This document shows, one piece after another, positions 4,280 to 43,049 of a stretch of 64,000 nucleotides of DNA; the stretch's first letter is position 1; the number at the start of each line of letters is the position of its first letter. Made by a program: the position numbers and the translations under genes. The notes beneath the pieces were generated by a model. The model was not told where the DNA came from, searched no databases, and saw nothing but the letters and a program-made list of their open reading frames with translations. The stretch spans positions 20,692 through 84,691 of the forward strand of contig JAKAHY010000003.1 of assembly GCA_021814695.1 (NCBI GenBank). The letters are read 5' to 3'. This stretch comes from a bacterium. Lineage in GTDB: Bacteria; Patescibacteriota; Minisyncoccia; UBA6257; JAGOQP01.

Positions 4280-5332
4280 ATGAGTTACGGATTATTTCTC
4301 GCTACGCTGATAGTTGTTCTTGGGGCCGCATTTGTAGCGGCGTACTTTTTGTTCGGAAAAAAGAACAAGGGAGAGGAAAAGACCCAGGATTCCGCCTTTC
4401 TTATGCTTCAAAATCAACTGAACGAAATAACGCGGGTTATGGACAGCAAATTGGGGGAATCACAGAAGGCCACAGTCAGCCAATTCCAGGAAAGTGCCAA
4501 AATAATCCGGGACGTGACCGAAAAATTAACCAAACTGGACGAGACCAACAAACAAGTTATAAATTTTGCCGACCAACTCAAGAATTTGCAGGATATTTTG
4601 AAAAATCCGAAACAGCGGGGAATTTTGGGAGAGTATTATTTGGAAACGGTTTTAAAAAATGTTTTTGCGCCCGGGCAATATCAGATGCAGTATGAGTTCA
4701 AGGATGGAGTGATTGTGGATGCCGTGGTATTTGTAAAGGATAAGATAGTTCCGATTGACTCAAAATTTAGCTTGGAAAATTACAACAGAATTTTGGAAAG
4801 CCGCACCGACGACGAGCGGGAAAGATATGAATCGGCATTTATCAGCGATTTGAAAACAAGAATAGACGAGACTTCCAAATACGTAAAACCCGAAGAGGGT
4901 ACGATGGAGTTTGCTTTCATGTTTATACCTTCCGAGGCCGTCTATTATGATTTGCTGATAAATAAAGTAGGAGCGCTTAAGGCCAATACGAGGGATCTAA
5001 TCGAATATGCCGCTCAAAAGAAAGTTATGGTTGTTTCGCCAACGACATTTCTGGCTTATTTGCAGACGGTTCTCCAGGGCCTTAAAGCAATGCAGATAGA
5101 AGAATCGGCAAAGGAAATCAGAAAAAGAGTTGAGGATTTAGGCAAACATCTGACGGCGTTTGATTCGTATATGGGAAAACTCGCCGGCCATCTGAGCACT
5201 ACCGTAAACACTTTCAATACTGCCCACAAAGAGCTTGGAAAAATAGATAAAGACGTTCTCAAGATAACCGGAGATTCGGGCGGAATAGAAATTAAGCAGA
5301 TTGAAAAGCCGACACTGTTTGACGAAGAATAA
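4280..5332 (+). CDS. rmuC: DNA recombination protein RmuC (short paralog, 350 aa)
   Basis: N-terminal TM helix, coiled-coil region, and the RmuC core FMFIPSEAVYYDLL...VMVVSPTTFLAYLQTV. Confidence 0.8.
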   Translation: MSYGLFLATLIVVLGAAFVAAYFLFGKKNKGEEKTQDSAFLMLQNQLNEITRVMDSKLGESQKATVSQFQESAKIIRDVTEKLTKLDETNKQVINFADQLKNLQDILKNPKQRGILGEYYLETVLKNVFAPGQYQMQYEFKDGVIVDAVVFVKDKIVPIDSKFSLENYNRILESRTDDERERYESAFISDLKTRIDETSKYVKPEEGTMEFAFMFIPSEAVYYDLLINKVGALKANTRDLIEYAAQKKVMVVSPTTFLAYLQTVLQGLKAMQIEESAKEIRKRVEDLGKHLTAFDSYMGKLAGHLSTTVNTFNTAHKELGKIDKDVLKITGDSGGIEIKQIEKPTLFDEE

Positions 5333-17752: not shown

Positions 17753-17756
17753 AAAT

Positions 17757-18473: not shown

Positions 18474-18482
18474 CACCCAAAT

Positions 18483-24313: not shown

Positions 24314-24704
24314 TTCCGGCCTCCTTTTGAAGTTCTAAACTGTTTAAAGTATAGCATAAAATTAAGATTTGTCAATAAGGTGTGATTAATTACTATTAAC
24401 TGTTTACTATTAACTGATTACTTGTTATCATTCAATTACAACTTAATAGAAGTTATCAAGAGTGGCGGGGAGGGAATTGGCCCCATGATCCGCCCAGCAA
24501 CTTGTCTTAGGTCTCGACGCTTAGGATAAAGTGCTAAATCCAATCCCCGAAGGCGTACTCGTCCTGAGCTCGCCGAAGGAGAGAGATAAGGTAGGTCGAT
24601 TTTTAATGCCTTTAAACTCTTTCCTTCTCGGGAGAGAGTTTTTCTTTGCCTCGTCGAAGCTTTAGCGAAGGCGGGTATTTATTATCCTTTCGGGCAATGG
24701 CTGT

Positions 24705-24880
24705 TTGCCACCCTTTTGACCGCAAAAGGGTGGCGTCTAAAACTCCCAGGCTTAACATATGCTTATAATTCAGTCGATTCGCGCTTCGCTCCTGTCCACA
24801 ACTCGCTTCGCTCAAACAAGTGGACAGCAAAACAGCTCGCGCTCATCTGACTGGATTAAATAAGCATATGTGGCCTGGCC
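24705..24880 (+). repeat. Repeat element copy 2 (hairpin CCACCCTTTTG-ACCG-CAAAAGGGTGG plus conserved tail CTGTCCACAACTC…GTGGACAG)
   Basis: Direct-orientation partner of copy 1. Compensatory changes preserve the stem. Confidence 0.65.
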
Positions 24881-24968
24881 GTTGAGAGTTATCACGGATA
24901 TCAAAAAATCCGTATAAATCCGTTACATCAGCATTAATCCGTGTAGTAATTAATATCTAACTAATAAC

Positions 24969-25172
24969 ATGATCATAAACGCAAACGATGAAAATAACAG
25001 AAAAGGTTTCATAATTGGAACCAGCGTGGCTCATCTGAAAAAATATAAAAAAACCGTAATACAAAGGGCGGTCGATAACGAACTCATTCCTATAAGTACT
25101 AAGGGAAAAACAAAAGAAGAGATTGTTAAAGAACTGATGAAACAAGCGAAACATATTATTGATCGCAATTAA
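24969..25172 (+). CDS. Hypothetical small basic protein (67 aa)
   Basis: ORF only. Confidence 0.35.
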   Translation: MIINANDENNRKGFIIGTSVAHLKKYKKTVIQRAVDNELIPISTKGKTKEEIVKELMKQAKHIIDRN

Positions 25173-25216
25173 TCTCAACTTCTATCCATTTATATCAACT
25201 AATATCTATTAACATC

Positions 25217-26182
25217 ATGCTTAACGAAAAAATAAGAACCTGCGAATACGTCTCCCCAAAACATCCAGATAAAATCTGTGACCAAATTGCCGATGCTATT
25301 CTGTCCGCTTATCTGAAAAAAGACAAAAAAGCGCGGGTGGCGGTGGAAGTTATGGGCGGGCACGGAGTGATAAATATATCGGGAGAAATAACCAGTAAAG
25401 CGAAAGGCATAAAAATACGAGATATAGTAGAGAAAGTGATATATGAGGGAACCGATATAGATAGAGATAGATTGAGATACGGTGGAGATAATATAAAAAA
25501 TAGAGATAAATTAAAACACAATAGATACAAAATCAATATAAACATTACTCATCAAAGCCCGTTTATTGCGCATGGAGTGGATACCGGCGGAGCGGGAGAT
25601 CAGGGAGTTATGGTCGGCTATGCCTGCAACGAGACCAAATCGCTGATGCCTCTGGAATACGAACTGGCCAAAAATTTGTGCCTGAATATTTACAAAAAAT
25701 ATCCTTATGACGGAAAAACTCAGGTAACTATAGACGGCAAAAAAGTTACGGCAGTTGTCGCCAGTTTTCAAAACACCAAAACTCCGGAATTGGAAAAATT
25801 GGTCAGGCGGCTCATAAAATCGGAAAAATATTTTATCAATCCTGCGGGGGAATGGCCGGTCGGAGGATTTGACGCCGACAGTGGGCTTTCGGGAAGAAAA
25901 ATTGTAGTTGATGCTTACGGACCAAACGTTCCGGTCGGAGGCGGAAGTTTTGCCGGCAAAGACCTGACTAAAGTAGACCGAAGCGGAGCGATGATGGCCC
26001 GAAAAATTGCCGTTGAGCTTCTAAAAAAGCACAAAGCCAAAGAGGTGCTGGTGAAACTGGCTTATGTAATTGGCGTACAACAGCCGGTAATGGCAGTGGC
26101 TTTAGCTGATGGAAAGTTGATTGAAGTAAAAGGCAGGGATTTGAGTACGAAGGGGATAGTGGAAACTTTGAGTTTTATCTGA
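25217..26182 (+). CDS. metK: S-adenosylmethionine synthetase, unusually short (321 aa), with a low-complexity insert encoded by GATA-rich DNA
   Basis: HPDKICDQIADA, GAGDQGVMVGYA, and GGGSFAGKDLTKVDRSGAMMARKIA are MetK motifs. Confidence 0.82.
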   Translation: MLNEKIRTCEYVSPKHPDKICDQIADAILSAYLKKDKKARVAVEVMGGHGVINISGEITSKAKGIKIRDIVEKVIYEGTDIDRDRLRYGGDNIKNRDKLKHNRYKININITHQSPFIAHGVDTGGAGDQGVMVGYACNETKSLMPLEYELAKNLCLNIYKKYPYDGKTQVTIDGKKVTAVVASFQNTKTPELEKLVRRLIKSEKYFINPAGEWPVGGFDADSGLSGRKIVVDAYGPNVPVGGGSFAGKDLTKVDRSGAMMARKIAVELLKKHKAKEVLVKLAYVIGVQQPVMAVALADGKLIEVKGRDLSTKGIVETLSFI

Positions 26183-26221: not shown

Positions 26222-29200
26222 ATGCCCCAAAAGATCTCAGATTATATAACCGAGGTATCAGATAAATATAAAACTGGCCGTGCCGGAGAGCATGCTTATA
26301 GGCCCACTTTTGAAAAGCTCATTAAGTCGATAGATCCAAAACTTTCGATCATTAACGATCCGAAACGTACAGAACACGGAGCGCCTGATTTTATATTTGT
26401 AAGGGGAGACTTGATAGCGGGCTATGTTGAGACAAAAGATATAGATGAGGATCTTGATAAGACTGAAAAATCAGAACAGATAGAAAGATATTTAGGTTAT
26501 TCAAATCTAATTCTCACTAATTATCTCGAATTTCGTTTTTTTAGAAACGGAGAACATTATGGCGAGCATATTATTATAGGGAAGATAATTGACGGAGTCG
26601 TTAAAATTCAAGAAGATCAGATCAGTTCTTTGGAAGATGTTATTTTTGATTTTTTATCTGCTAAGCCAGAAGCTATAAAAAGTGGAATTCGTCTGGCAAA
26701 AATTATGGGAGGTAAGGCGCGCCGTATAAGAGATAGCGTAAAACAATTTCTGACTAAAGAATCGGAAGATAATCAAGAACTCTCGCGCGTTTACGAAACA
26801 ATAAAAAAACTTCTGGTTCACGATTTAACTTCCGAATCATTTGCGGATATGTACGCTCAGACTCTTGTTTATGGGCTTTTTGTGGCTCGTTATTATGACG
26901 AATCTCCGGATAATTTTACGCGTCAAGAAGCGCGTGATCTTATACCGGCATCAAATCCATTTCTGCGTCATTTCTTTGACCATATTGCTGGTCCGGATTT
27001 TGATAAACGATTAGCTTATATAGTAAATGAACTTTGTGAGGTTTTCTCGGTCGCGGATGTTCAAGTTCTCATGAGTCAGTATTTTAAGCAAGAGGATTTG
27101 TGGGGGAAGATACATAAAGGCCCTGATCCGGTTATCCATTTTTATGAGGATTTTTTAAAAGAATATGATTCTGAATTGCGTAAAAAAATGGGAGCATTTT
27201 ATACTCCATTACCAGTTGTAGATTTTATTGTCCGGTCAGTTGATTATCTCCTCAAAAAAGAGTTTAACTTATCCGGGGGCCTTGCTGATGCTACTAAGAC
27301 AGGGTTAGTGCACAAAGTTCAAATTCTTGATCCAGCCGTAGGGACGGGAACATTTATTAGTGAAATTATTCGTACTATCTATCAAAGTTTTTCTGGGCAA
27401 GAAGGACGTTGGCCGACTTATGTTTATCATGATCTTTTGCCTCGTTTACATGGCTTTGAATTAATGATGGCGCCTTACACCATTGCCCACCTTAAATTTA
27501 GTATGATGTTAAAGGAGACGGGTTTTAAACACTTTAACAATAGTAGGCTTGGTATCTATCTGACAAATTCTCTAGAGAATGGAGACGCTCAAGATAGTTT
27601 ATTTACAGGATTTGGTTTTGCCGAGAGTATTGCGGAGGAATCCAAAGAGGCGTCAAAAATCAAGAATGAAAAACCAATCATGGTTGTTGTTGGTAACCCG
27701 CCATATAGCATTAGCTCCTCGAATAAGGGTGAGTGGATTCTAAATCTTATTAAAGACTACAAAAAAGACTTGGGCGAAAGAAAAATTAATCTAGATGATG
27801 ACTATATAAAATTTATTCGTTTTGCAGAACATTTTATAGAAAAAAATGGAAGTGGTATTGTAGCTATGATAACCAATAATTCATTTATTGATGGAATTAC
27901 TCATCGTCAAATGAGGAAGCATTTATTGGAAACATTCGACAATGTTTATATTCTTAATTTGCACGGCAATTCTAAGAAAAAAGAAAAGTGTCCAGACGGT
28001 AGTAAAGATGAGAATGTTTTTGATATTCAACAAGGCGTATCTATTTCAATTTTTGTAAGAAAAGAAGGCAAAAAACAAGAATTAGGAAAAGTATTCCACT
28101 CTGAATTATACGGCAGACGTCAAGATAAGTTTGAGAAACTTAATTCTTTTGATTTAGAAAACATAAAATGGCAAAGACTTAATACCATAGAGCCTTATTA
28201 TTTCTTTATCCCAAAAGATTTTAGTTTGAGTGATTCTTATGATAACTTTTTCTCTATAACAGATCTGTTCAAAATTTATTCAGCAGGGATAAAAACTAAA
28301 GTTGATAACATATCAATAGACTTTGAAAGAGAATCACTCGGGAAAAGAGTTGAAGACATACTTACAAATAAATATTCATTGCAAGAAGTCATTAAAAAAT
28401 TTAGCTTGAATCCAAAAACTACCTGGGAATACAACAATGTTCTGAGGGCGAGTTTTAACGATAAAGTTTTGTCTTTCTATGATTATAGGCCGTTTGATAG
28501 AAGATTTATCTACTATGATAAAAATTTTCTTTCCAGAAGTAGATCGCAAGTAATGGATAATTTTTTTAATAAAGATAATATAGGCTTAGAAACTTCACGT
28601 ATGGGTGATTACATTTTTATTTCTAAAAATATTTCAGACGAGCATTTTGTTTCAGATAATTCATTTAAATTTCCACTTTATCTGTACCTAGATAATGGTC
28701 AGCAAATATCCAATCTTAAAAATGAGATCGTGGGAAAAATTACAGGAATTACTGGCAAAGCAGCTCCCATAGATATTCTTGATTATATTTATGCAGTCCT
28801 CCATTCGCCTAATTATAGAAAAAAATATGAGGAATTTTTAAAAATTGACTTCCCGCGGATACCATATCCAAAAGACAGAAAAACCTTTGAGAAATTAGTG
28901 AGTTTTGGAAAAGAGTTGAGAGAACTGCATCTTTTAGAATCTACAAAGCTTAAAAACTTTATCACGACATTTCCAGAATCAGAAAGTGATCTCGTTGAGT
29001 CAAAATATCCAAAATATAAGGATGGGAATGTTTATATAAATAGTACTCAATATTTTGGTAATGTTTCAGAAGTTATCTGGAATTTCTACATAGGAGGATA
29101 TCAACCTGCTCAAAAATGGCTTAAAGATCGCCAAGGCCGAAAACTTTCAAATGAAGACATTGAACACTATCAAAAGATGATTGTAGCTTTGATGGAGACA

Positions 29201-29242
29201 GACGGGGTTATAAAAGAAATTGATAAAATTTATGTTCAATAA
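26222..29242 (+). CDS. Type IIG restriction-modification enzyme (MmeI-like PD-(D/E)XK endonuclease fused to a gamma-class N6-adenine methyltransferase and a target-recognition region)
   Basis: N-terminal PD…ExK (APDFIF…GYVETKD), MTase motif I (ILDPAVGTGTF), motif IV (VVVGNPPYS). 1006 aa. Confidence 0.8.
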   Translation: MPQKISDYITEVSDKYKTGRAGEHAYRPTFEKLIKSIDPKLSIINDPKRTEHGAPDFIFVRGDLIAGYVETKDIDEDLDKTEKSEQIERYLGYSNLILTNYLEFRFFRNGEHYGEHIIIGKIIDGVVKIQEDQISSLEDVIFDFLSAKPEAIKSGIRLAKIMGGKARRIRDSVKQFLTKESEDNQELSRVYETIKKLLVHDLTSESFADMYAQTLVYGLFVARYYDESPDNFTRQEARDLIPASNPFLRHFFDHIAGPDFDKRLAYIVNELCEVFSVADVQVLMSQYFKQEDLWGKIHKGPDPVIHFYEDFLKEYDSELRKKMGAFYTPLPVVDFIVRSVDYLLKKEFNLSGGLADATKTGLVHKVQILDPAVGTGTFISEIIRTIYQSFSGQEGRWPTYVYHDLLPRLHGFELMMAPYTIAHLKFSMMLKETGFKHFNNSRLGIYLTNSLENGDAQDSLFTGFGFAESIAEESKEASKIKNEKPIMVVVGNPPYSISSSNKGEWILNLIKDYKKDLGERKINLDDDYIKFIRFAEHFIEKNGSGIVAMITNNSFIDGITHRQMRKHLLETFDNVYILNLHGNSKKKEKCPDGSKDENVFDIQQGVSISIFVRKEGKKQELGKVFHSELYGRRQDKFEKLNSFDLENIKWQRLNTIEPYYFFIPKDFSLSDSYDNFFSITDLFKIYSAGIKTKVDNISIDFERESLGKRVEDILTNKYSLQEVIKKFSLNPKTTWEYNNVLRASFNDKVLSFYDYRPFDRRFIYYDKNFLSRSRSQVMDNFFNKDNIGLETSRMGDYIFISKNISDEHFVSDNSFKFPLYLYLDNGQQISNLKNEIVGKITGITGKAAPIDILDYIYAVLHSPNYRKKYEEFLKIDFPRIPYPKDRKTFEKLVSFGKELRELHLLESTKLKNFITTFPESESDLVESKYPKYKDGNVYINSTQYFGNVSEVIWNFYIGGYQPAQKWLKDRQGRKLSNEDIEHYQKMIVALMETDGVIKEIDKIYVQ

Positions 29243-29294: not shown

Positions 29295-31454
29295 ATGAAA
29301 AAAATACAATTAAAATTAGCAAATTGCTACGGAATTAAGAAATTAGAAAGAGATTTTGATTTTTCGAATAACGGTACTTATGTAATTTATGCTCCCAATG
29401 GAGTTATGAAAACTTCATTTGCGAAGACATTTAAAGACTTAAGTTTAGGATTAAATTCTAAAGATTTGATTTTTCCAGAAATAGAGACGATCCGTGAGAT
29501 TAATAAAGAGAACAATACTAATTTGTCTAAAGAGGAAGTTTTTGTTGTAGAGCCATATAATGAGGATTTTAATTCAGAAAAAATATCTACCCTTTTGGTT
29601 AATAAAGAATTGAAAGGCAGATATGATAAAATCCATTTAAAAATTGATGAAGAAAAGAGCGGGTTACTAAAAGAATTAAAAAACTTATCTGGATTTCGAG
29701 ATGATATCGAAGAAGAAATTTCTCAAGCTTTTACAAGTGAGGACGATAGATTATTTGATTCTCTAGAAAGGGTGGAAAAAGAAGTTATGGATATTTCAGA
29801 ACCTGTGTATTCTGATATTTCTTATAAAGAGATTTTCAATGAAAAGGTTCTAAATTTTCTGATGACTAAGGATTTCAAAGAAAAAATTGAGCAATATATT
29901 AAAAAATATGACGAATTAATTGAAAGTTCAAAATATTTTAAAAAAGGTATATTTAATCATAATAATGCATCAGTTATAGCCAAGAGTTTAGTAGATAATG
30001 GTTTCTTTAAAGCACAACATTCCATTTCTTTAAATACAAGAGAAAGTAAAAATGAAATTTACACCAAAGAAGAACTTGAAAAAGTCATTGATGAAGAAAA
30101 AAACGCTATATTGAATAACCCTGATTTGGTGAAAGTTTTTGAAGAGTTGGACAGCAAATTAAAAGCTAATAAAGAATTGCGTGATTTCAGAGATTATTTG
30201 TTAAATAATCCAAAAATTTTACCAGAACTGAAAAATCTTGATAGTTTTCGACAAAAATTATGGGTATCCTATTTTAAGAGTCAAAAAGATTTATACGAGA
30301 GTTTCTTAAAGGAATACCATTCTGGAAAAAGTGAATTGGACAAAATAATAGAACAAGCTAAAACAGAAGCAACGCACTGGATGGATGTGATAGACATCTT
30401 TAATGAAAGGTTTTCAGTTCCGTTTAAGCTTAGTATAAAAAATCAGGGTGATGTTATTTTAAAACGAGATGTTCCTAGTATCGCTTTTATATTTAAAGAT
30501 TCAAATGGCGAAGTTCCTGTAGAAAAATTAAATTTACTCCAAGTATTAAGTAGCGGAGAGAAACGTGCTCTGTATATCTTAAACATAATTTTTGAAGTTC
30601 AAGCAAGAAAAGAAGAAAATCAGGAAACCCTATTTATTATTGATGATATAGCAGATTCTTTTGACTATAAAAATAAATACGCGATTGTTGAATATTTGAA
30701 AGATATTTCGGAAGAAACAAATTTTTATCAAATAATTTTAACTCATAACTTCGATTTTTTTAGAACCGTTCAGAGCAGGTTTGTTCCTTATGATAATTGT
30801 TTAATGGTTGAAAAAACAACTGAAGAATTAAAAATAGTAAAAGCAGATTATATAAAAAATCCATTCAAATACTGGATGAATCATTTAGATGATGATAAAA
30901 AATTAATAGCATCAATTCCGTTTGTAAGAAATCTTATTGAATACACAAAAGACACAAACGATGATGATTTTTTGAAATTAACATCATTATTACACGTTAA
31001 ATCAAATTCCGATTCTATTTTTAAAAGCGATTTACAAAATATTTATAAAAGTATATTTCCTAACTTATCACTAACCTTAATAGGTAAAGATGAAAAGGTT
31101 ATTAATTTAATTTTTAATTTAGCAGATACCTGTTTAACTGCGACCGTAGGCATAAATCTAGAAAATAAGATTCTTCTTTCTATTGCTATTAGATTGGTAG
31201 CGGAAAAATTTATTTTAAGTAAGATAACTGATAAAAGTGAGATTGTCGGAAAACAAACAAGGAAACTTTTTGAAAGATTTAGAAATGAATTTAATAAAGA
31301 TAATTTTGAACAAGAAAATATTAAAATACTAGAGCAAGTTAATCTTATGACTCCAGAAAATATACACTTTAATTCATTTATGTATGAGCCTATTTTAGAT
31401 ATGTCGGATGATCATTTGAAAAACTTATATAACGAAGTGAAAAAATTAAAATAA
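29295..31454 (+). CDS. SMC/OLD-like ABC ATPase (719 aa) with a degenerate Walker A and a ~390-aa helical insert between Walker A and the signature motif
   Basis: The N-terminus follows the OLD/AAA_21 pattern (MKKIQLKLANCYGIKKLE…YAPNGVMKTSFAKT). Signature LSSGEKRALYIL, Walker B/D-loop LFIIDDIADSFD, H-loop ILTHN. Confidence 0.65.
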   Translation: MKKIQLKLANCYGIKKLERDFDFSNNGTYVIYAPNGVMKTSFAKTFKDLSLGLNSKDLIFPEIETIREINKENNTNLSKEEVFVVEPYNEDFNSEKISTLLVNKELKGRYDKIHLKIDEEKSGLLKELKNLSGFRDDIEEEISQAFTSEDDRLFDSLERVEKEVMDISEPVYSDISYKEIFNEKVLNFLMTKDFKEKIEQYIKKYDELIESSKYFKKGIFNHNNASVIAKSLVDNGFFKAQHSISLNTRESKNEIYTKEELEKVIDEEKNAILNNPDLVKVFEELDSKLKANKELRDFRDYLLNNPKILPELKNLDSFRQKLWVSYFKSQKDLYESFLKEYHSGKSELDKIIEQAKTEATHWMDVIDIFNERFSVPFKLSIKNQGDVILKRDVPSIAFIFKDSNGEVPVEKLNLLQVLSSGEKRALYILNIIFEVQARKEENQETLFIIDDIADSFDYKNKYAIVEYLKDISEETNFYQIILTHNFDFFRTVQSRFVPYDNCLMVEKTTEELKIVKADYIKNPFKYWMNHLDDDKKLIASIPFVRNLIEYTKDTNDDDFLKLTSLLHVKSNSDSIFKSDLQNIYKSIFPNLSLTLIGKDEKVINLIFNLADTCLTATVGINLENKILLSIAIRLVAEKFILSKITDKSEIVGKQTRKLFERFRNEFNKDNFEQENIKILEQVNLMTPENIHFNSFMYEPILDMSDDHLKNLYNEVKKLK

Positions 31455-31470
31455 ATAATTAAAAGATTTT

Positions 31471-32880
31471 ATGACCATAATGATTTTACTAATAATAAAT
31501 ACTTTTGGAATCGCTCTTTTGACATTTCTGTTTTTTAAGAATAAACAATCTGATAATGCCGGCCAAATAACAAAAGCTGTTGAGATTTTATTTGATAGAA
31601 TGGATAAGGCTTTTAAGGAAGAAATGTCTCTAAATAGAAAAGAGTCGGCAGACTCAGAAAAAAGATTACGCGAAGAAATTTCTAGCTCATTTAAGGGATT
31701 TGGAGATTCGCTTGATAAAAGAATGTCCGAACTTGCTAGTACTCAAAATAAGAATTTTGAAGGATTTTCTATAAAACTTACAGAATTAATTGATAAGAAT
31801 GATACAAAAATAGAAAAAGTCAGAGAAACAGTTGAAAGAAAGCTTGAAAATATACAAAAAGACAACGGCGAAAAATTAGAAATGATGAGGCAGACAGTAG
31901 ACGAGAAGCTCCAATCTACCTTAGAGAAGAGACTGGGAGAATCATTCAGGCAAGTAAGCGACAAACTGGATTCTGTCCATGTCGGGCTTGGAGAAATGAG
32001 AAATCTGGCGTCTGACGTTGGTGGTCTAAAAAAAGTTTTAACAAATGTAAAAACACGCGGTATCTGGGGTGAGGCACAACTGGGTGCTTTACTGGACCAG
32101 GTATTATCTCCGGAACAGTATGCAAGTAACGTTGCAGTTAAGCGTGATGGCAGAGAAAGAGTAGAATATGCTATCAAATTACCAGGCACTAAAGAAGACG
32201 GAAGTGATCCCGTGTGGTTGCCTATAGATTCAAAATTTCCTCAAGAAGATTATGATCGTCTAATTAGCGCATACGAACAAGCAGATGCCAATGCAATTGA
32301 TGTAGCGTCTAAACAACTGGAGCTTAGGATTCGCAATGAAGCCAAAAGTATCAACGAAAAATATATTGATCCACCCAATACAACAGATTTTGCCATATTA
32401 TTTTTACCATATGAAAGTTTATATGCAGAGGTTATTAGGCGCCCCGGTCTCTGCGAAACAATTCAAAGAAGCTACAGGGTTACAATAACGTGTCCGTCAA
32501 CATTGGGTGCTTTATTAACCAGTCTTCAAATGGGATTTAAAACTCTTGCTATACAAAAGAGATCAAGTGAAGTGTGGGAAGTGCTCGGAGCAGTAAAAAC
32601 GCAATTTGGTAAATTTTCTAACTTGCTCGAAAAAACTCAAAGACAATTGAAAACCGTAGCTGGTACAATTGAAGAAGCTACTAAAAAAACCAAGACAATT
32701 GAGGGTAAACTAAGAAAAGTACAACAATTACCAGAATCTTTATCAATTAAGGTACTAAAAGGAGTGGAAGAGTTGGAAAATAGCCAGGAGGATGCAGAAG
32801 GAATAGAAAAGACGTCAATTTCTGAGACGCAAGAAGATTTTTCAGATAAAGAGATTAGATCAGAAGACCTACCGTTTTAG
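31471..32880 (+). CDS. rmuC: DNA recombination protein RmuC, second full-length paralog (469 aa)
   Basis: TM helix, coiled coil, RmuC core DFAILFLPYESLYAEVIRRPGL…RVTITCPSTLGALLTSLQMGF. Confidence 0.85.
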   Translation: MTIMILLIINTFGIALLTFLFFKNKQSDNAGQITKAVEILFDRMDKAFKEEMSLNRKESADSEKRLREEISSSFKGFGDSLDKRMSELASTQNKNFEGFSIKLTELIDKNDTKIEKVRETVERKLENIQKDNGEKLEMMRQTVDEKLQSTLEKRLGESFRQVSDKLDSVHVGLGEMRNLASDVGGLKKVLTNVKTRGIWGEAQLGALLDQVLSPEQYASNVAVKRDGRERVEYAIKLPGTKEDGSDPVWLPIDSKFPQEDYDRLISAYEQADANAIDVASKQLELRIRNEAKSINEKYIDPPNTTDFAILFLPYESLYAEVIRRPGLCETIQRSYRVTITCPSTLGALLTSLQMGFKTLAIQKRSSEVWEVLGAVKTQFGKFSNLLEKTQRQLKTVAGTIEEATKKTKTIEGKLRKVQQLPESLSIKVLKGVEELENSQEDAEGIEKTSISETQEDFSDKEIRSEDLPF

Positions 32881-35800
32881 GTATCATTCTTCAATAAATC
32901 CTCCTCAAAACTTTTGATTCCGTTGAAGCCCATTTCTGCGTATTTTGATATGTCCGGAAAGTCGAGATTTATTATTTTCTTATAAACAATGCCTATTAAG
33001 GCCTTTAGGCGCTCAACTTCTTGCGGATCTATGTCCAGTGTTAGCCCAACGAGTTCTTTATGAAGGGGTTCTATAAAGCTTATAACTCCTTTATTTACCG
33101 TATATTTATTTCCGAATGCTTTGGAGTTTTCTATAAGGAGTTTATAGAATATTAACTGATTACGGTTGCGCCAGGCCTTAATTTTTGCGTACTGGTCGGT
33201 TGGGGACCAGCTATCTATTGGTTTTCCGGTTTTAAAATCCTCAACTATCATTTTGTTCCCTTCGATTTTTATTTTATCTATTCTTCCTGTTATGGGCGTT
33301 CCGTCTATAATTGCCCCCTCCTTTTTGAAATCAAATTCACTCTTATCGTCAATTGAAAAAGATTTCTTCTTCTGATTATAAAAGTTTTCAATTGCTTTCT
33401 GTCCTCTTTGCAGTAGGAGATCAAAATCCTTTTGGTTGAGCCGTCCGTTTTTTAGGGATTCTTCAAACCAAATTAACACCTCTTTAGTCGGAGGTAGTTT
33501 TTTATTATTTTTTAGGTAGTTGTATGTGCGTTTGATAGTTTCATGAGCGGCCGATCCAAGAATGCCACTTGGGGTCTTTGGTTCAGGAAATAAAAGCAGA
33601 TTTTTTTCAAAGAAAGTTGCTGGTCCGCCATCAACAACATTTAAGAAATTCTGTAAATGAGTAACGTTGAGTTTATAGTCGTCCAAAATTGGTTTTAAAA
33701 GCGCTTTTTCTTCGGCTACAAAAGGGGGAGTGTGCAACATATTTAATTGATCAACTAGCATCTCTTCCGGAACTCGATTAATATCTTTTATTTCAATAAA
33801 TTCTGGTTCAAAAGATTTTAAAGCACCTTCCGGGGATATAAATCCAAGGCGAGAAGATTCTTTTCCCTTGTTGTCATATTTATATGATGTCAGATATAAC
33901 AATCTTTTGGCTCTGGTGATGGCAACATAAAAAAGTCGGAGTTGATCATCTATATTGTCTCCTGCTGGGCTGATGGGTAAATTCGATGGCAGGGTTATAT
34001 TATTTCTACCTCGTCCGGTTCCGGCCCAGGAATCTTCCTGGCAATTTAAAACAAATACGGCTTCAAATTCCAATCCTTTGGCTTTGTGTGCGCTCATCAA
34101 TTGGACCGCTTCGTTGGAATTAATAAAAGGACTGGTGTTATTTATGGGGAGGTTGTTTTTTGTGTGGATGTCAAAAAATTCAATCATCTCTCCAATATTT
34201 ACTCTTTTACCACGTCTATATTCTCTTAGGGATTCAATAAATGATTTTAATGAAGATAGAAAATTTAAATAATCTGCTCTGTGTTTGGTAAATTTGTCCT
34301 TGTTAAAATAATAAGATCTAAATGGACTAAACATATCATTGCTACCCGCAGTTTCTTCCTCGGTTTTTTCATCTGAAAGGATTTGCTGGGGTCCACCAAT
34401 GAGCTCCTGGAGAACTTCTTCTGCCGTTGCGTAAGTTGCTAGTCCTCCCAAGTTAATGAAAAATTCCGCTATGTCACTTAGCTGTCCTCCTAATTCTTTC
34501 ATAACCATAAGCCACGGCTTGTTTTCTTTTATAGCCTTTATAGAAAGCTCCCAAATCATTGATCGTTTTATATTCCAGAACGGATAGTTTAATATCTCCG
34601 GTAAAAAGTTATCGGCATCGTCCGATTTTTTCATTATAGAGTCAACAAATTTGGCCATCGTGATAAGTTCCAAAATGTGCGGTTCCTGCAAAACATTTTG
34701 CTGGCGTTCGTAAGCAATTGGAATTTTAGCCATGTGGAAATAAGGAGCTAGAGATTCAAGGTCTTTATGTTCGCGAGCGATAACGGCAATTTCTTTGGGG
34801 GATATGCCTTGTTCAATCAATTTTTTTATTTCGGTTGTTATCCAATGATATTCTATTTCTTTGGAAGCAAATTCTTTTGAATGGATTTTTCCATCTTTTA
34901 TATTTTTATTACTGGCGATCAGCTCTTTTTTTAATTCTGGAAAGATATTTTCAAGACGATTAACACCTTTTTTAATTATAAGTTTTGCTGCGTCTAATAT
35001 GTCTTGAGTTGATCGATAATTTTCTTTAAGAACTATTAGCTCTGGTTTGCGGTATGTGTTTTGAAAACCGCTGACGTTGGTAATTTCTGCCCCCTGAAAT
35101 TTGAAAATTGCCTGGTCATCGTCTCCGACAACCATTATATTGGGTCTGCCTTCGTTGACAGGGTTATCAGTTAGAAGCTTCAATAACCTCATTTGGGCAT
35201 CATTGGTGTCTTGAAATTCATCCACAAGAATATATTGGTAGCGTTCCTGTAAGTCCAGTTTTACGTTTAAATTGTTTTCGAGCACGGAGATTGCGTCCAG
35301 GATCATATCGTCAAAATCATAATATTCGTTTTCTCTCAACTTCTTCATATATTTTTCGTATATGTCGGCTAACGCCTCCATCCTTTCGATGTTTAAAAGA
35401 TCGGTGATATGCCTGAATCCATCCTCGCCTTTTTCTGTCCATTCATTTTTCCATTCTGTTACTGGGGATGTTGCATTCAAATCCTCGGCGTTTTTGACGG
35501 CTTGGGCGAGTGAGTACGCTAGTGATTGAGCAAAAGGTCTAAAGAAGCCCGGTAATTTTTTAGATTTAAAAGCGCCGATCTCCTTGGCGGCTGAAATTGC
35601 GGCAGGATATAATTTTTTTGAGATCCTGTCATTAAAAACAGATTTGATTATTGGGTCTGCATGTTCTATTTCTTTTTTATTTTCGGCTAATATAGTTTTG
35701 AATTCATCCGGAGTAAGCCCGGCTTTTTTAAGATATTCGATCGCCTTTTTTGTTTTATATAAGTAAGTAAATTGACCATTGAACTCTGATCGCAGGGGAT

Positions 35801-36203
35801 TATCATATGGAAGTTCGGTAAATATTTTTTCTAATATTTCTGTCTGTGTTATCTGGTCAGCAGGAAGAAGAGTGGCGCCATTATAAAAATATTCCGGATA
35901 ATAATTTATTATTTCAACTCCAAAACTATGAAAAGTATGGATAGAAACTCTGTATGCGTCATGGCCGATAAGACCAGCTAATCGGTTGCGCATATTGAAT
36001 GCGGCGGCGTCGGTAAATGTTAAACACAATATATTTCCTGGGGAGGCGTCAGTATTTTTTAAAATATTAGCCACACGCAAGCTCAGAAGCTCGGTTTTTC
36101 CGGATCCCGGCCCGGCTATAACCATCACGGGGCCATCTATGGTATCAACGGCCTGTTTTTGTTGTTTATTTAAATTTTTAATCCTATCTTCAAATGTGCT
36201 CAT
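32877..36203 (-). CDS. UvrD/PcrA-like superfamily-1 helicase fused to a C-terminal RecB-family PD-(D/E)XK nuclease domain (1108 aa)
   Basis: Helicase motifs: AGPGSGKT, DEFQDTN, VGDDDQAIFKFQGA, NYRST. Nuclease motif: GRIDKIKIEGNKMIVEDFKTGK. Confidence 0.85.
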   Translation of the reverse strand: MSTFEDRIKNLNKQQKQAVDTIDGPVMVIAGPGSGKTELLSLRVANILKNTDASPGNILCLTFTDAAAFNMRNRLAGLIGHDAYRVSIHTFHSFGVEIINYYPEYFYNGATLLPADQITQTEILEKIFTELPYDNPLRSEFNGQFTYLYKTKKAIEYLKKAGLTPDEFKTILAENKKEIEHADPIIKSVFNDRISKKLYPAAISAAKEIGAFKSKKLPGFFRPFAQSLAYSLAQAVKNAEDLNATSPVTEWKNEWTEKGEDGFRHITDLLNIERMEALADIYEKYMKKLRENEYYDFDDMILDAISVLENNLNVKLDLQERYQYILVDEFQDTNDAQMRLLKLLTDNPVNEGRPNIMVVGDDDQAIFKFQGAEITNVSGFQNTYRKPELIVLKENYRSTQDILDAAKLIIKKGVNRLENIFPELKKELIASNKNIKDGKIHSKEFASKEIEYHWITTEIKKLIEQGISPKEIAVIAREHKDLESLAPYFHMAKIPIAYERQQNVLQEPHILELITMAKFVDSIMKKSDDADNFLPEILNYPFWNIKRSMIWELSIKAIKENKPWLMVMKELGGQLSDIAEFFINLGGLATYATAEEVLQELIGGPQQILSDEKTEEETAGSNDMFSPFRSYYFNKDKFTKHRADYLNFLSSLKSFIESLREYRRGKRVNIGEMIEFFDIHTKNNLPINNTSPFINSNEAVQLMSAHKAKGLEFEAVFVLNCQEDSWAGTGRGRNNITLPSNLPISPAGDNIDDQLRLFYVAITRAKRLLYLTSYKYDNKGKESSRLGFISPEGALKSFEPEFIEIKDINRVPEEMLVDQLNMLHTPPFVAEEKALLKPILDDYKLNVTHLQNFLNVVDGGPATFFEKNLLLFPEPKTPSGILGSAAHETIKRTYNYLKNNKKLPPTKEVLIWFEESLKNGRLNQKDFDLLLQRGQKAIENFYNQKKKSFSIDDKSEFDFKKEGAIIDGTPITGRIDKIKIEGNKMIVEDFKTGKPIDSWSPTDQYAKIKAWRNRNQLIFYKLLIENSKAFGNKYTVNKGVISFIEPLHKELVGLTLDIDPQEVERLKALIGIVYKKIINLDFPDISKYAEMGFNGIKSFEEDLLKNDT

Positions 36204-36422: not shown

Positions 36423-36896
36423 ATGAATGATATTGAATTTTCTAGAGATTTAATAAAAGGTAAAATTGCGGAAGTCGTGTTTGAGCAAATGTTTAGATCC
36501 TCAGGGAAATATACGATACTGCATTCCGGTTACGAATATACACTTCCTGAACTTGCACAGTATCAGCATATAGCGGAAGTGAAAGCCGTTATCGAAAATA
36601 TAAGAAATGCTCCTGATTTTGTTTTAATATCTCAGGATAAAAAAGAAGTGCATTTAGTAGAGGTAAAATATCGTACACATAGACGTCCAAATGAATTAAA
36701 GGAAATCGCGGAGGATGTGTTAAAAATCTGGAATCCATGTTGGCTATTTGTTGCATCTCCAGACGGTTTCTTTTTTGAACCCTGTAATACTGTTGTAAAT
36801 AATAATGGTGAGATGGGATTGCTTTATTCAAAATGGGTCAACGAAGACATTCAGCGAGAATTTCTTAAATTATTGAACGAATTTGAAAAAAAATAA
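36423..36896 (+). CDS. Small PD-(D/E)XK nuclease-fold protein (YraN/UPF0102-like)
   Basis: GKIAEVVFE … APDFVLIS…VHLVEVKYR (E / PD / EVK). Confidence 0.55.
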   Translation: MNDIEFSRDLIKGKIAEVVFEQMFRSSGKYTILHSGYEYTLPELAQYQHIAEVKAVIENIRNAPDFVLISQDKKEVHLVEVKYRTHRRPNELKEIAEDVLKIWNPCWLFVASPDGFFFEPCNTVVNNNGEMGLLYSKWVNEDIQREFLKLLNEFEKK

Positions 36897-37149
36897 ACCC
36901 ATGAGCAAGGATGAAGAGTTGATATATGAAAATTGCCCCATATGTCTTAAAACGGGATTTGATGGGCACCTGGCTTATCTGGCAATATTGCATTACCAGA
37001 TTGAAGCCGGAAAAGAAGAAGGCGTCCCGATTGACAAGGTTTTCGATAAAACTCAGGCACTCAAGCATTCTATTAATAAAGAAAATGTGCATGAAAATAT
37101 CATCATTTCTCTGAGGCGGCTTGAAAAAATTGAAAAAAATAATAAATAA
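36883..37149 (+). CDS. Hypothetical small protein (88 aa; alternative start 36901)
   Basis: ORF overlapping the preceding stop. Terminator AATCCGCCCAAGGCGGATT plus T-run. Confidence 0.4.
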   Translation: MKKNKPMSKDEELIYENCPICLKTGFDGHLAYLAILHYQIEAGKEEGVPIDKVFDKTQALKHSINKENVHENIIISLRRLEKIEKNNK

Positions 37150-37247
37150 TCCGCCCAAGGCGGATTTTGTGTAGACAAATTGACGCTATAATCTTTTTAA
37201 TGTAGCTTGAATTCAGCAACTATATAAAACCAAAGGAGGGGCGACAG

Positions 37248-37703
37248 ATGCCTAAAAAAATCCAATGCTATCTAGCCGGTTCGTTTATTCCATTTGGAGG
37301 TTGCGAAGATTGGCGCGATTATGTTGAGTCGAATTGTCTGTGCGGAAAAATCTCATTTTATGATCCCAGATCAGATACTGAGCAGGAATCTATAGCATCT
37401 TTTACGTCTCAGGATTTGAAAGGGGTAGGGTCGAGTGATGTCATCTTCTGTTTTATGGATAAGAACGCGGGTGAGGTCGGATCTGCTGCAGAATGCGGAT
37501 TTGGCCTTGCTAAAAATCGGATGGTAATTCTTTGTATTGGGGAGGACGTTGACTTCCCTCATCCGTTTATGTTGGGGCTTGCGCGTCGAGTGATTATCGG
37601 ACTTGATGCCGGAATAGAATATCTCAAAGGTCTTGCTGATTATGGAATTGAGAATGAATTTGCTGTTGCCTACGATTTTTTGAAAGATAAGAGCCAAAAA
37701 TAA
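37248..37703 (+). CDS. Nucleoside 2-deoxyribosyltransferase-like (NDT/Rcl-fold) protein
   Basis: CYLAGSFIPFGG motif and flavodoxin-like layout. Near-identical terminator TTCCGCCCAAGGCGGATT plus T-run. Confidence 0.5.
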   Translation: MPKKIQCYLAGSFIPFGGCEDWRDYVESNCLCGKISFYDPRSDTEQESIASFTSQDLKGVGSSDVIFCFMDKNAGEVGSAAECGFGLAKNRMVILCIGEDVDFPHPFMLGLARRVIIGLDAGIEYLKGLADYGIENEFAVAYDFLKDKSQK

Positions 37704-43040: not shown

Positions 43041-43049
43041 TTTCGCAGC

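What the first reader, a model, noticed from the sequence alone, without database searches (positions are those of the whole stretch)
31471..32880. Two rmuC paralogs; the second sits inside the defence-like cluster
rmuC is normally single-copy. Here a 350-aa copy follows uvrA (4280..5332), and a full-length 469-aa copy (TM, coiled coil, nuclease-like core) lies between the SMC-like ATPase and the helicase-nuclease. This position suggests that RmuC, a predicted membrane-tethered PD-(D/E)XK-like nuclease, serves here as an effector partner of the ATPase.
Basis: inference. Interest (0 to 1): 0.55.

Follow-up and report, generated by a model that had tools for sequence, protein, structure and literature searches.

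The report
Island-borne RmuC nuclease trailing restriction genes
This candidate-phylum bacterium has its normal RmuC gene plus a second, horizontally acquired, membrane-anchored RmuC nuclease at the tail of a restriction-enzyme/ATPase cassette, which resembles the known "Shield" defence protein but was recruited independently and is not tied specifically to the ATPase.

Summary
Both ORFs are strong RmuC (PF02646) matches and lie 27 kb apart on one real 335-kb Patescibacteria contig. They are not recent paralogues (25% identity).

RmuC1 (350 aa) is the lineage's complete, resident RmuC, with core-like codon GC, a conserved uvr/groESL neighbourhood and a smooth identity gradient across Patescibacteria. 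RmuC2 (469 aa) has a TM helix, a ~180-aa coiled coil and an intact PD-(D/E)XK core. Its GC3 (0.28) matches the type IIG enzyme (0.27) and the ATPase (0.20), not the core (0.40-0.50).

The ATPase is a full-length PADLOC PDC-S46 candidate with a Rad50/SMC-like fold, usually embedded in RM loci. Only 4 of 80 ATPase loci carry an RmuC, and 0 of 81 broader RmuC2-type loci carry the ATPase.

In 8 of 10 sampled contexts, close RmuC2 relatives sit directly downstream of varied defence genes: type II, IIG and III RM, PDC-S37-like helicase-nucleases, or PDC-S46. RmuC2 is itself a recombinant, with a breakpoint near 31,800-31,850.

Best reading: a Shield-like nuclease add-on to restriction operons, recruited from a different RmuC lineage than Pseudomonas ShdA. 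A dedicated ATPase-RmuC pair is possible but a minority reading. All function is inferred.

The parts
4280..5332 (+). RmuC1: the resident (housekeeping-type) RmuC of this Patescibacteria lineage, 350 aa, with an N-terminal hydrophobic helix, a short coiled coil and an RmuC core.
   Evidence: PF02646 E=3e-56. GC3 0.476, like core genes. The identical protein occurs on 11 contigs in a conserved uvrB-uvrC-uvrA...SDR-rmuC-groES-groEL context. Identity falls smoothly from 100% to 67%, and every named hit is Patescibacteria. An orthologue (55% identity, E=1e-127) lies in the backbone of another CPR contig, L175. Catalytic E118, D160/K162 and E219 are conserved.
25217..26182 (+). Short MetK (321 aa) marking the left edge of the low-GC segment. 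It is core-like in composition and is not counted as island cargo.
   Evidence: All three S-AdoMet synthetase Pfam domains are present. TIGR01034 scores 229.9 bits, below the 309.4 cutoff. GC3 is 0.416. A SAM riboswitch lies upstream at 24450-24592.
26222..29242 (+). Type IIG (Type ISP-like specificity domain) restriction-modification enzyme, 1006 aa; first gene of the island cassette.
   Evidence: Type_ISP_C E=6e-75, N6_Mtase and Eco57I. PADLOC REase_MTase_IIG E=1.5e-281. GC3 is 0.272, with the 3' specificity half at 0.243.
29295..31454 (+). Rad50/SMC-like ABC ATPase, 719 aa, a member of the PADLOC single-gene defence candidate family PDC-S46. It has an ATPase head, a helical insert (about aa 104-372) and an uncharacterised C-terminal helical domain (about aa 520-719).
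   Evidence: PDC-S46 E=5e-282, aligned 1-718 of 719. AlphaFold model pLDDT 83.4. Foldseek hits to Rad50, SMC heads, the retron Ec83 ATPase, LmuB, PtuA and AriA. GC3 is 0.204. Upstream neighbours in 62 other genomes are dominated by RM genes.
31471..32880 (+). RmuC2: island-borne RmuC-family protein, 469 aa (NCBI calls the start at 31480, giving 466 aa). Layout: TM helix aa 2-23 (31474-31539), coiled coil aa 30-211 (31558-32103), PD-(D/E)XK-like core aa 214-340 (32110-32490), long C-terminal helix aa 342-419 (32494-32727).
31800..31850 (+). Recombination breakpoint inside RmuC2. The 5' third shares ancestry with the ATPase-linked 439-aa cluster, and the 3' two-thirds with the P0002/P0003/P0006/P0014 subclade.
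   Evidence: Sliding-window identity flips at about aa 110-127 (protein; DNA). It coincides with a GC step from about 0.25 to about 0.43. DNA homology to L175 and L014 begins 5 bp before the ATPase ATG, at window 29290.
32877..36203 (-). UvrD/PcrA-type helicase with a C-terminal PD-(D/E)XK nuclease, 1108 aa, convergent with RmuC2 and overlapping it by 4 bp. Probably a resident gene and not part of the cassette; status uncertain.
   Evidence: UvrD-helicase, UvrD_C and PDDEXK_1 domains. GC3 is 0.350, intermediate. A same-architecture homologue (43% identity over the N-terminus) lies in the backbone about 8 kb from the island on L175. It recurs next to neither RmuC2-type genes nor the ATPase elsewhere.

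Best explanation
RmuC2 is a horizontally acquired RmuC-family nuclease embedded in a defence locus. It resembles the Shield protein ShdA in architecture: membrane anchor, long coiled coil and a cytoplasmic PD-(D/E)XK nuclease domain.

In Patescibacteria and a few other phyla, this sublineage travels as the last, probably co-transcribed gene of varied restriction or defence operons. In this genome the cassette is type IIG restriction-modification enzyme, then PDC-S46 Rad50/SMC-like ATPase, then RmuC2.

Shown by the data:
- the island origin of RmuC2;
- its architecture and intact catalytic residues;
- its recurrent 3'-terminal position behind different defence genes;
- the independent embedding of the ATPase in RM loci;
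- the chimeric origin of RmuC2, in which the ATPase plus the first ~115 codons of rmuC2 share ancestry with the L175/L014-type module and appear to have recombined into an rmuC2 of a different sublineage.

Inferred, not shown:
- RmuC2 acts as a membrane-proximal, largely non-specific DNase that supplements restriction, for example by degrading incoming or already restricted DNA as proposed for ShdA;
- the ATPase is a separable, optional module and not RmuC2's obligate partner.

RmuC1 remains the housekeeping RmuC.
For: **Island origin.** GC3 is 0.277 for RmuC2, 0.272 for the IIG gene and 0.204 for the ATPase, against 0.40-0.50 for core genes including RmuC1. The same pattern holds in L175 and L014.

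**Two lineages.** RmuC1-type and RmuC2-type share 21-28% identity. A second CPR contig (L175) also carries both types, with the short one orthologous to RmuC1.

**Ten sampled contexts of RmuC2's close relatives (58-98% identity).** Eight have a restriction or defence gene directly upstream on the same strand, from a 4-bp overlap to a 16-bp gap:
- type IIG + ATPase (window);
- D12 MTase + putative REase + ATPase (L175-178 and L014);
- EcoRV-like REase + D12 MTase;
- type III Mod + Res;
- SF1 helicase + MTES_1575, which matches PADLOC PDC-S37 at E=1e-61 to 1e-70, in three sublineages.

The other two contexts are integrase or recombinase islets.

**Contrast.** Upstream neighbours of 55 RmuC2-type genes at 46-64% identity from other phyla are ordinary housekeeping genes.

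**Precedent.** ShdA (TM helix + RmuC domain) alone confers phage defence, degrades DNA in vitro and is found in DISARM loci (PMC10270631) and in type I RM loci in Pseudomonas (PMC11090510).

**Mosaicism.**
Against: No experiment bears on RmuC2. Anti-phage activity and DNase activity are extrapolated from ShdA, which is only 26% identical and belongs to the E. coli-type lineage.

The RmuC2 lineage as a whole is the canonical bacterial rmuC: about 50% identity to annotated rmuC of Rhizobium and Ralstonia, in housekeeping contexts in other phyla. A repair or anti-recombination role retained in an island setting cannot be excluded.

The context sample for close relatives is small (10 distinct contexts). 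I could not show that CPR genomes carrying RmuC2-type genes generally also have an RmuC1-type gene; this is known for only two.

Co-transcription is inferred from short gaps and the absence of terminator-like sites, not shown.
Confidence: 0.55

Rival explanations
1. The PDC-S46 Rad50/SMC-like ATPase and RmuC2 form a dedicated two-component defence system, with an ATPase sensor or motor and a membrane-tethered nuclease effector, analogous to Septu PtuA/PtuB, Lamassu LmuB/LmuA or PARIS AriA/AriB. The restriction enzyme is merely a neighbour.
For: The ATPase and RmuC are directly adjacent on the same strand in the window (16-bp gap), in L175-178 and L014 (4-bp overlap), in L040 (48-bp gap) and in L045 (11-bp gap, reversed order). 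In L080 they are 1.6 kb apart and divergent.

These cases involve two deep RmuC lineages (RmuC2-type and E. coli/ShdA-type) and at least three or four independent origins on the RmuC tree.

Two or more immediate same-strand downstream adjacencies in 71 loci has P of about 1e-4 to 4e-3 under a random-gene null.

The ATPase fold resembles defence ATPases that pair with nucleases. The ATPase and the 5' third of rmuC2 share ancestry. In three other loci a DUF2130 coiled-coil protein lies directly next to the ATPase's 3' end.
Against: 76 of 80 ATPase loci have no RmuC in the available flanks, up to 10 kb each side. The family was defined as a single-gene candidate.

0 of 81 RmuC2-type loci at 46-64% identity carry the ATPase, and 7 of 10 close-relative contexts lack it.

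ATPase-linked RmuCs are 89-95% identical to copies behind type II RM, type III RM or SF1 helicase-nuclease genes, so there is no ATPase-specific clade. The same N-terminal RmuC type occurs in the ATPase-free P0012 context.

Both genes are independently attracted to RM loci. Co-embedding alone would therefore produce some adjacency, and the random-gene null overstates the significance.

No profile similarity was found between RmuC2 and DUF2130.
Confidence: 0.18
2. RmuC2 is not a defence gene. It is a second recombination-limiting or repair RmuC that hitch-hikes in variable regions. Alternatively, it mainly serves as a conserved flank where incoming cassettes recombine, or it protects the host from its own restriction enzymes by processing self-inflicted breaks.
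For: The RmuC2 lineage is the canonical rmuC of many bacteria and sits in housekeeping contexts outside CPR. A recombination breakpoint lies inside the gene, and the cassette upstream differs between near-identical RmuC copies. That is what a conserved recombination anchor would look like. No defence-library HMM other than a reverse-transcriptase-associated RmuC model hits it.
Against: The genome already has a resident RmuC1 with intact catalytic residues. RmuC2 has island-like GC3 in three genomes. It lies on the same strand and is tightly spaced behind many unrelated defence genes, including on small islets with only a recombinase. Identical proteins recur on 24 or more contigs together with their cassettes. 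Membrane-anchored RmuC domains are experimentally defensive in Pseudomonas (PMC10270631).
Confidence: 0.2

Closest known systems
Shield system core protein ShdA (Pseudomonas; Macdonald et al., PLoS Genet 2023, PMC10270631), including the ShdA homologues embedded in DISARM and type I RM loci (PMC10270631; PMC11090510)
   Same: The architecture is the same: an N-terminal transmembrane helix, a long coiled coil and a C-terminal PF02646 RmuC domain. Both sit in defence islands and are embedded in or next to restriction-type systems. The catalytic E...DxK...E residues are shared.
   Different: The RmuC lineage differs. ShdA II is 45% identical to E. coli RmuC (E=3e-107) but only 26.5% identical to RmuC2 (E=3e-7), so the recruitment was independent. 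The hosts differ (Patescibacteria, Elusimicrobia and Chlorobiaceae against Pseudomonas only). RmuC2 is the last gene behind its partners, whereas Shield accessory genes lie downstream of shdA. No ShdB-E-type partner is present. No functional data exist for RmuC2.
Housekeeping RmuC (E. coli yigN/rmuC, a putative recombination-limiting protein; canonical rmuC of Rhizobium and Ralstonia)
   Same: The Pfam family, the TM + coiled coil + nuclease-like layout and the conserved catalytic residues are shared. RmuC2 is about 50% identical to annotated rmuC of Alpha- and Betaproteobacteria.
   Different: E. coli RmuC is only 21-23% identical to either window copy, and the NCBIfam equivalog is not met. 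RmuC2 is a second, island-borne copy with foreign codon composition. In this genome the housekeeping role is filled by RmuC1.
PADLOC phage-defence candidate PDC-S46 (the neighbouring ATPase); PDC candidates are defined by recurrent embedding in RM, BREX and DISARM loci (PMC12881386)
   Same: The window ATPase is a full-length member (E=5e-282) and sits directly behind a type IIG RM gene, as the definition predicts.
   Different: PDC-S46 is catalogued as a single-gene candidate. The window and a few other loci add an RmuC (or elsewhere DUF2130) gene next to it. I found no experimental test of PDC-S46.
ABC/SMC-type ATPase plus nuclease defence pairs (Septu PtuAB, Lamassu LmuABC, PARIS AriAB, the type I-A retron ATPase + HNH)
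   Same: The ATPase head resembles them at fold level, and a nuclease-fold protein is encoded next door.
   Different: There is no HMM-level membership in any of these families. The pairing is facultative (4 of 80 loci), whereas those systems have obligate partners.

Membership tests
RmuC family (Pfam PF02646) | Match to the family HMM above the gathering score (26 bits) | tested here: met
   RmuC1 scores 191.1 bits and RmuC2 scores 248.7 bits.
RmuC family (Pfam PF02646) | Restriction-endonuclease-like core with conserved acidic and lysine residues | tested here: met
E. coli-type RmuC equivalog (NCBIfam NF007686 / PRK10361) | Score at or above the curated 810-bit cutoff | tested here: not met
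   RmuC1 scores 41.9 bits. RmuC2 has no hit at E<=0.001.
Shield / ShdA | N-terminal transmembrane helix plus C-terminal RmuC domain | tested here: met
   Hydrophobic residues 2-23 followed by KNK. Helix 2-23 in the model. PF02646 spans aa 134-422.
Shield / ShdA | Sequence membership in the ShdA clade | tested here: not met
   ShdA II, taken from the paper's S2 Fig (machine-read), is 26.5% identical to RmuC2 over 200 aa (E=3e-7) but 45% identical to E. coli RmuC (E=3e-107). Whether PADLOC-DB 2.0.0 holds a ShdA model is unknown; none was hit.
Shield / ShdA | Location in defence islands or next to known defence systems | tested here: met
   Adjacent to a type IIG RM gene and PDC-S46. Island GC3. 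Close relatives lie behind RM or PDC-S37-like genes.
Shield / ShdA | Accessory genes ShdB-E encoded downstream (subtypes II-IV) | tested here: not met
   The only downstream gene is a convergent UvrD-type helicase-nuclease on the opposite strand. Subtype I (ShdA alone) needs no partner.
Shield / ShdA | Anti-phage activity and non-specific DNase activity | not testable with these tools
   Requires phage plating assays and nuclease assays.
PADLOC PDC-S46 (the ATPase) | Full-length HMM match and embedding in a known defence locus | tested here: met
   E=5e-282 over 1-718 of 719. It lies 52 bp downstream of the type IIG gene. The RM-embedded pattern is confirmed in other genomes.
Obligate ABC-ATPase + nuclease two-gene defence system (Septu / Lamassu / PARIS type) | Conserved, near-universal adjacency of the ATPase with its nuclease partner | tested here: not met
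   An RmuC lies next to the ATPase in 4 of 80 reference-genome loci. The ATPase lies next to RmuC2-type genes in 0 of 81 metagenome loci.
Obligate ABC-ATPase + nuclease two-gene defence system (Septu / Lamassu / PARIS type) | HMM membership of the ATPase in PtuA, LmuB, AriA or GajA | tested here: not met
   No such PADLOC hit at E<=0.01. The similarity is at fold level only.
PrrC/RloC-type restriction-linked ABC ATPases (considered for the ATPase) | AAA_13-type ATPase with a C-terminal anticodon-nuclease domain | tested here: inconclusive
   PF13166 is hit weakly by 2 of 58 homologues (E about 7e-8, below its cutoff) and not by the window protein. The C-terminal 219 aa hit no Pfam family. No PrrC or RloC sequence was available for direct comparison.

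The most novel reading that the evidence does not exclude
The PDC-S46 Rad50/SMC-like ATPase and an RmuC-family membrane nuclease form a real, modular two-component defence unit. The ATPase can plug in alternative coiled-coil nuclease-type partners: RmuC2-type, E. coli/ShdA-type RmuC, or DUF2130.

More broadly, RmuC-family proteins would be ancient, repeatedly recruited accessory nucleases of restriction systems. That could explain the long-obscure role of housekeeping RmuC as a limiter of foreign or aberrant DNA recombination.
Probability: 0.18. Interest if true: 0.65.

Novelty: new variant of a known kind. Interest (0 to 1): 0.45.

Why it matters
RmuC has lacked a clear function for 25 years. 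Its only experimentally established defence role (Shield) was reported as confined to Pseudomonas.

These data show that a different RmuC lineage has independently become a mobile gene trailing restriction operons in Patescibacteria and some other phyla. It sits next to two untested PADLOC candidate families (PDC-S46, and PDC-S37-like helicase-nucleases).

If RmuC2 is active, it would extend Shield-like defence well beyond Pseudomonas. It would also give a simple, testable cassette (restriction enzyme, ATPase, RmuC) for asking how membrane-tethered nucleases cooperate with restriction. Finally, it would add to the sparse picture of immunity in small-genome CPR bacteria.

Tried and rejected
- **MAG chimera.** I suspected the two RmuC genes came from two concatenated MAG contigs, because one assembly has a contig start at window 24210. 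Rejected: the window matches one 335-kb contig with 0 mismatches across that point.
- **Island next to a resident rmuC.** I considered that RmuC2 is the resident gene and the island merely inserted beside it. Rejected on GC3 and on the presence of a resident RmuC1 orthologue series.
- **Rate discordance.** I first took ATPase 84% against RmuC 65% identity (window vs L175) as evidence of separate histories. Withdrawn: L175 vs L014 show the same divergence ratio (92% vs 83%). The within-gene mosaic is the valid evidence.
- **DUF2130 as a distant RmuC homologue.** hhalign probability is below 1%. Only the position and general layout are parallel.
- **Solved structures by sequence.** None for RmuC2 or the ATPase.
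- **Viral contigs.** One weak RmuC2-type hit. In the phage collection there were only five unannotated metagenomic fragments, so RmuC2 is not typically phage-borne.
- **Plasmids.** Only chromid or megaplasmid rmuC at about 50% identity.
- **Literature.** No paper mentions PDC-S46, and none mentions RmuC together with Patescibacteria.
- **Scan sensitivity.** My first phmmer scan with RmuC1 and RmuC2 missed an E. coli/ShdA-type RmuC next to the ATPase in L045. It was recovered with a broader profile.
- **Island boundaries.** I could not delimit them against a relative lacking the island, because every contig recovered with the identical MetK or helicase that extends far enough carries it.
Full report
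**1. Observation**

The 4280-5332 ORF (350 aa) hits PF02646 at E=3e-56, and the 31471-32880 ORF (469 aa) at E=8.8e-74. RmuC2 is flanked upstream by a 719-aa ATPase (29295-31454). Downstream lies a convergent 1108-aa UvrD-type helicase with a PD-(D/E)XK domain (32877-36203, minus strand).

One public assembly (GCA_027423255.1) has a contig that starts at window 24210. That raised the possibility of a chimeric window. However, window 15217-36182 is identical, with 0 mismatches, to a stretch of a 335-kb contig of sister assembly GCA_027341185.1. That same contig carries RmuC1, so both genes lie on one replicon about 27 kb apart. Every contig shown with the identical MetK or helicase that extends far enough carries the same MetK-IIG-ATPase-RmuC2-helicase order. 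The arrangement therefore appears fixed in this population.

**2. The two copies are not duplicates**

They share 25% identity. Both have an N-terminal hydrophobic helix. They differ mainly in coiled-coil length.

RmuC1 has these properties:
- core-like codon composition (GC3 0.476, against 0.40-0.50 for uvrA, groEL, metK and the efflux genes);
- a conserved uvrB-uvrC-uvrA...SDR-rmuC-groES-groEL neighbourhood on 11 contigs;
- a smooth series of homologues from 100% down to 67% identity, 327-369 aa for all but one listed hit, and every named hit is Patescibacteria.

It is the lineage's complete resident RmuC, not a truncated paralogue. It also does not directly follow uvrA; about 2.3 kb and four small genes lie between them.

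RmuC2 has GC3 0.277. That matches the type IIG gene (0.272) and sits near the ATPase (0.204), well below the core. On a neighbour-joining tree, E. coli RmuC, the RmuC1 type and the RmuC2 type are three deep lineages at 21-28% mutual identity.

A second CPR contig (L175) shows the same duality. It carries an island-borne 439-aa RmuC2-type gene and, 1.5 kb away, a 337-aa orthologue of RmuC1 (55% identity, E=1e-127).

**3. Anatomy of RmuC2**

The AlphaFold model (pLDDT 72.8) has:
- a TM helix at residues 2-23;
- helices 30-74 and 81-211 (the coiled-coil region);
- an alpha/beta core at 214-340;
- a long helix at 342-419.

**4. The neighbours**

The upstream 1006-aa protein is a type IIG restriction-modification enzyme: Type_ISP_C E=6e-75, and PADLOC REase_MTase_IIG E=1.5e-281.

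The ATPase is a full-length member of the PADLOC candidate family PDC-S46 (E=5e-282). Its model (pLDDT 83.4) has a Rad50/SMC-type head. Foldseek hits include Rad50, cohesin and condensin heads, and the defence ATPases of retron Ec83, Lamassu, Septu and PARIS. The C-terminal ~200 residues match no Pfam family.

PDC candidates were defined by recurrent embedding in RM, BREX or DISARM loci (PMC12881386). I found no paper on PDC-S46 itself.

No terminator-like site lies in the 52-bp and 16-bp gaps between the three genes. This is consistent with co-transcription but does not prove it.

**5. Testing the proposed ATPase-RmuC linkage**

*Starting from the ATPase.* I fetched 80 loci from one-genome-per-species references, with ATPase identity of 46-83% across many phyla. 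Four have an RmuC nearby:
- L014 (Moranbacteria): RmuC directly downstream, 4-bp overlap;
- L040 (Elusimicrobia): downstream, 48-bp gap;
- L080 (Chlorobiaceae): 1.6 kb upstream, divergent;
- L045 (Bdellovibrionales): an E. coli/ShdA-type RmuC directly upstream, 11-bp gap.

The other 76 have none. In three loci a DUF2130 protein lies directly next to the ATPase's 3' end: same strand in L023 and L046, convergent in L057. It shows no profile similarity to RmuC2. The ATPase's immediate upstream neighbours in 62 loci are dominated by RM components: N6_Mtase 7, Eco57I 5, ResIII 5, HSDR_N 3, and Type_ISP_C, Methylase_S, HpaII, DpnII and PstI-type REases.

*Starting from RmuC2.* None of 81 RmuC2-type loci at 46-64% identity (80 metagenome contigs plus one viral contig) carries the ATPase. 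Their upstream neighbours are ordinary housekeeping genes. Annotated rmuC genes of Rhizobium and Ralstonia belong to this lineage at about 50% identity.

The picture changes for the closest relatives (58-98% identity, mostly CPR). Among ten distinct sampled contexts, eight have a restriction or defence gene directly upstream on the same strand, from a 4-bp overlap to a 16-bp gap:
- type IIG + ATPase (the window);
- HTH + D12 MTase + putative REase + ATPase (L175-178, beside an rve-family transposase/integrase gene);
- D12 MTase + unknown ORF + ATPase (L014);
- EcoRV-like REase + D12 MTase (P0012);
- type III Mod + Res (P0048, on 24 or more contigs);
- SF1 helicase + MTES_1575 nuclease in three sublineages (P0033, P0006, P0071). 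These match PADLOC PDC-S37 at E=1e-61 to 1e-70 and resemble Hhe and Mokosh proteins.

The remaining two contexts are an integrase/methyltransferase element (P0003) and a recombinase-only islet between smpB and infC (P0014).

On the tree, ATPase-linked copies do not form a clade. In the 439-aa cluster they are 89-95% identical to copies behind type II RM, type III RM or SF1-helicase genes. The core of the window's own RmuC2 groups with P0003, P0006 and P0014, none of which is ATPase-linked. L040, L080 and L045 lie far away.

The linkage is therefore real but facultative. It arose several times. It is best seen as two independently RM-embedded genes that sometimes end up side by side. Two or more immediate downstream adjacencies in 71 loci gives P of about 1e-4 to 4e-3 under a random-gene null. 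That null ignores the shared attraction of both genes to RM loci, so it overstates the significance.

**6. Mosaic origin**

Residues 1-120 of the window's RmuC2 are 68-90% identical to the 439-aa cluster (P0021, P0012) and only 20-77% identical to P0003 and P0006. From about residue 120 onward this reverses: 85-100% against 47-75%.

The flip is also visible in DNA at about window 31,800-31,850, where it coincides with a GC jump from about 0.25 to about 0.43. DNA homology to the L175 and L014 modules begins 5 bp before the ATPase start codon.

The simplest reading is that the ATPase plus the 5' third of rmuC2 entered by recombination into an rmuC2 of a different sublineage. This is an inference. 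I withdrew an earlier argument based on unequal ATPase and RmuC divergence, because L175 vs L014 show the same ratio.

**7. Comparison with what is known**

The closest described system is Shield. ShdA is a membrane-bound RmuC-domain protein that alone protects Pseudomonas and E. coli from phages, lowers transformation and degrades DNA in vitro. It was reported only from Pseudomonas, with about 70 further homologues inside DISARM loci (PMC10270631). Koonin and colleagues noted TM + coiled-coil + RmuC-like genes inside Pseudomonas type I RM loci (PMC11090510).

RmuC2 shares the architecture and the RM-embedded setting, but not the lineage. ShdA II, read from the paper's S2 Fig, is 45% identical to E. 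coli RmuC and only 26-28% identical to either window copy. This is therefore an independent recruitment of an RmuC lineage into defence loci. The hosts and partners differ, and RmuC2 is the last gene of the operon instead of the first.

No searchable paper links RmuC with Patescibacteria. PADLOC has no model that captures RmuC2 apart from a weak match to a reverse-transcriptase-associated RmuC model.

**8. Verdict**

All functional statements are inferred from architecture, context and the Shield precedent.

Novelty: a new variant of a known kind. Interest is moderate.

Noticed in passing
window 24450-26182: A SAM riboswitch (24450-24592) with a terminator-like hairpin (24614-24641) precedes a 67-aa ORF and an unusually short MetK (321 aa; TIGR01034 scores 229.9 bits, below the 309.4 cutoff). 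MetK ends 39 bp before the SAM-dependent type IIG enzyme, and no terminator-like site lies between metK and the end of RmuC2. The island may be read through from a SAM-regulated promoter.
   Followed up: partly
window 26222-29242: The type IIG gene is compositionally mosaic. The 5' half has GC3 0.30 and the 3' half, which encodes the Type_ISP_C specificity domain, has GC3 0.24. This suggests a swapped target-recognition domain.
   Followed up: no
window ~16007-19706 and 41475-45014: Two paralogous MacAB-like triplets (membrane-fusion protein, ABC ATPase, FtsX permease; 581/238/407 aa and 521/240/413 aa) flank the ~22-kb region that contains the island.
   Followed up: no
L023 12130-13602; L046 3459-4664; L057 2812-4134 (minus strand): In three other genomes the PDC-S46 ATPase has a DUF2130 coiled-coil protein (PF09903, E=1e-61 to 1e-75) directly next to its 3' end: same strand in L023 and L046, convergent in L057. 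No profile similarity to RmuC2 was detected.
   Followed up: partly
L179 292-6438; L187 2824-8377; L194 3757-8386: A recurrent module pairs an SF1 helicase (AAA_11/AAA_12) fused to an MTES_1575 nuclease, which matches PADLOC candidate PDC-S37 and resembles Hhe and Mokosh proteins, with an RmuC2-type gene directly downstream (with a 307-aa ORF between them in L187). It occurs in three RmuC2 sublineages and may be a defence module in its own right.
   Followed up: partly
L045 184-6204: A Bdellovibrionales contig reads: protein with an MZB (DUF1998-like, DISARM DrmB-type) domain, then an E. coli/ShdA-type RmuC (483 aa), then the PDC-S46 ATPase, then a Ser/Thr protein kinase. This is the only case found with the ShdA-like RmuC lineage next to this ATPase.
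   Followed up: partly
L175 49-9570: In another CPR genome the cassette (rve-family transposase/integrase, HTH, D12 MTase, putative REase, ATPase, RmuC2-type) sits only 1.5 kb upstream of the resident RmuC1-type gene. I could not tell whether this proximity is coincidence or a preferred insertion region.
   Followed up: no
window 36423-37703: Two small low-GC ORFs without family matches (157 aa at 36423-36896, GC3 0.27; 82 aa at 36901-37149) and a borderline nucleoside 2-deoxyribosyltransferase-like ORF (37248-37703; 30.0 bits, equal to the cutoff) lie just beyond the helicase. The right-hand boundary of the acquired segment is therefore unclear.
   Followed up: no
window 29295-31454 (aa ~520-719): The ATPase's C-terminal helical domain has strongly conserved polar residues (R545, N546, H567, K625, R633, the T686-P-E-N-I-H691 motif, E698, D702) and no Pfam match. 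Two homologues weakly hit AAA_13, a Pfam ATPase family that, from memory, includes PrrC/RloC-type proteins. An intrinsic effector domain is possible but untested.
   Followed up: partly
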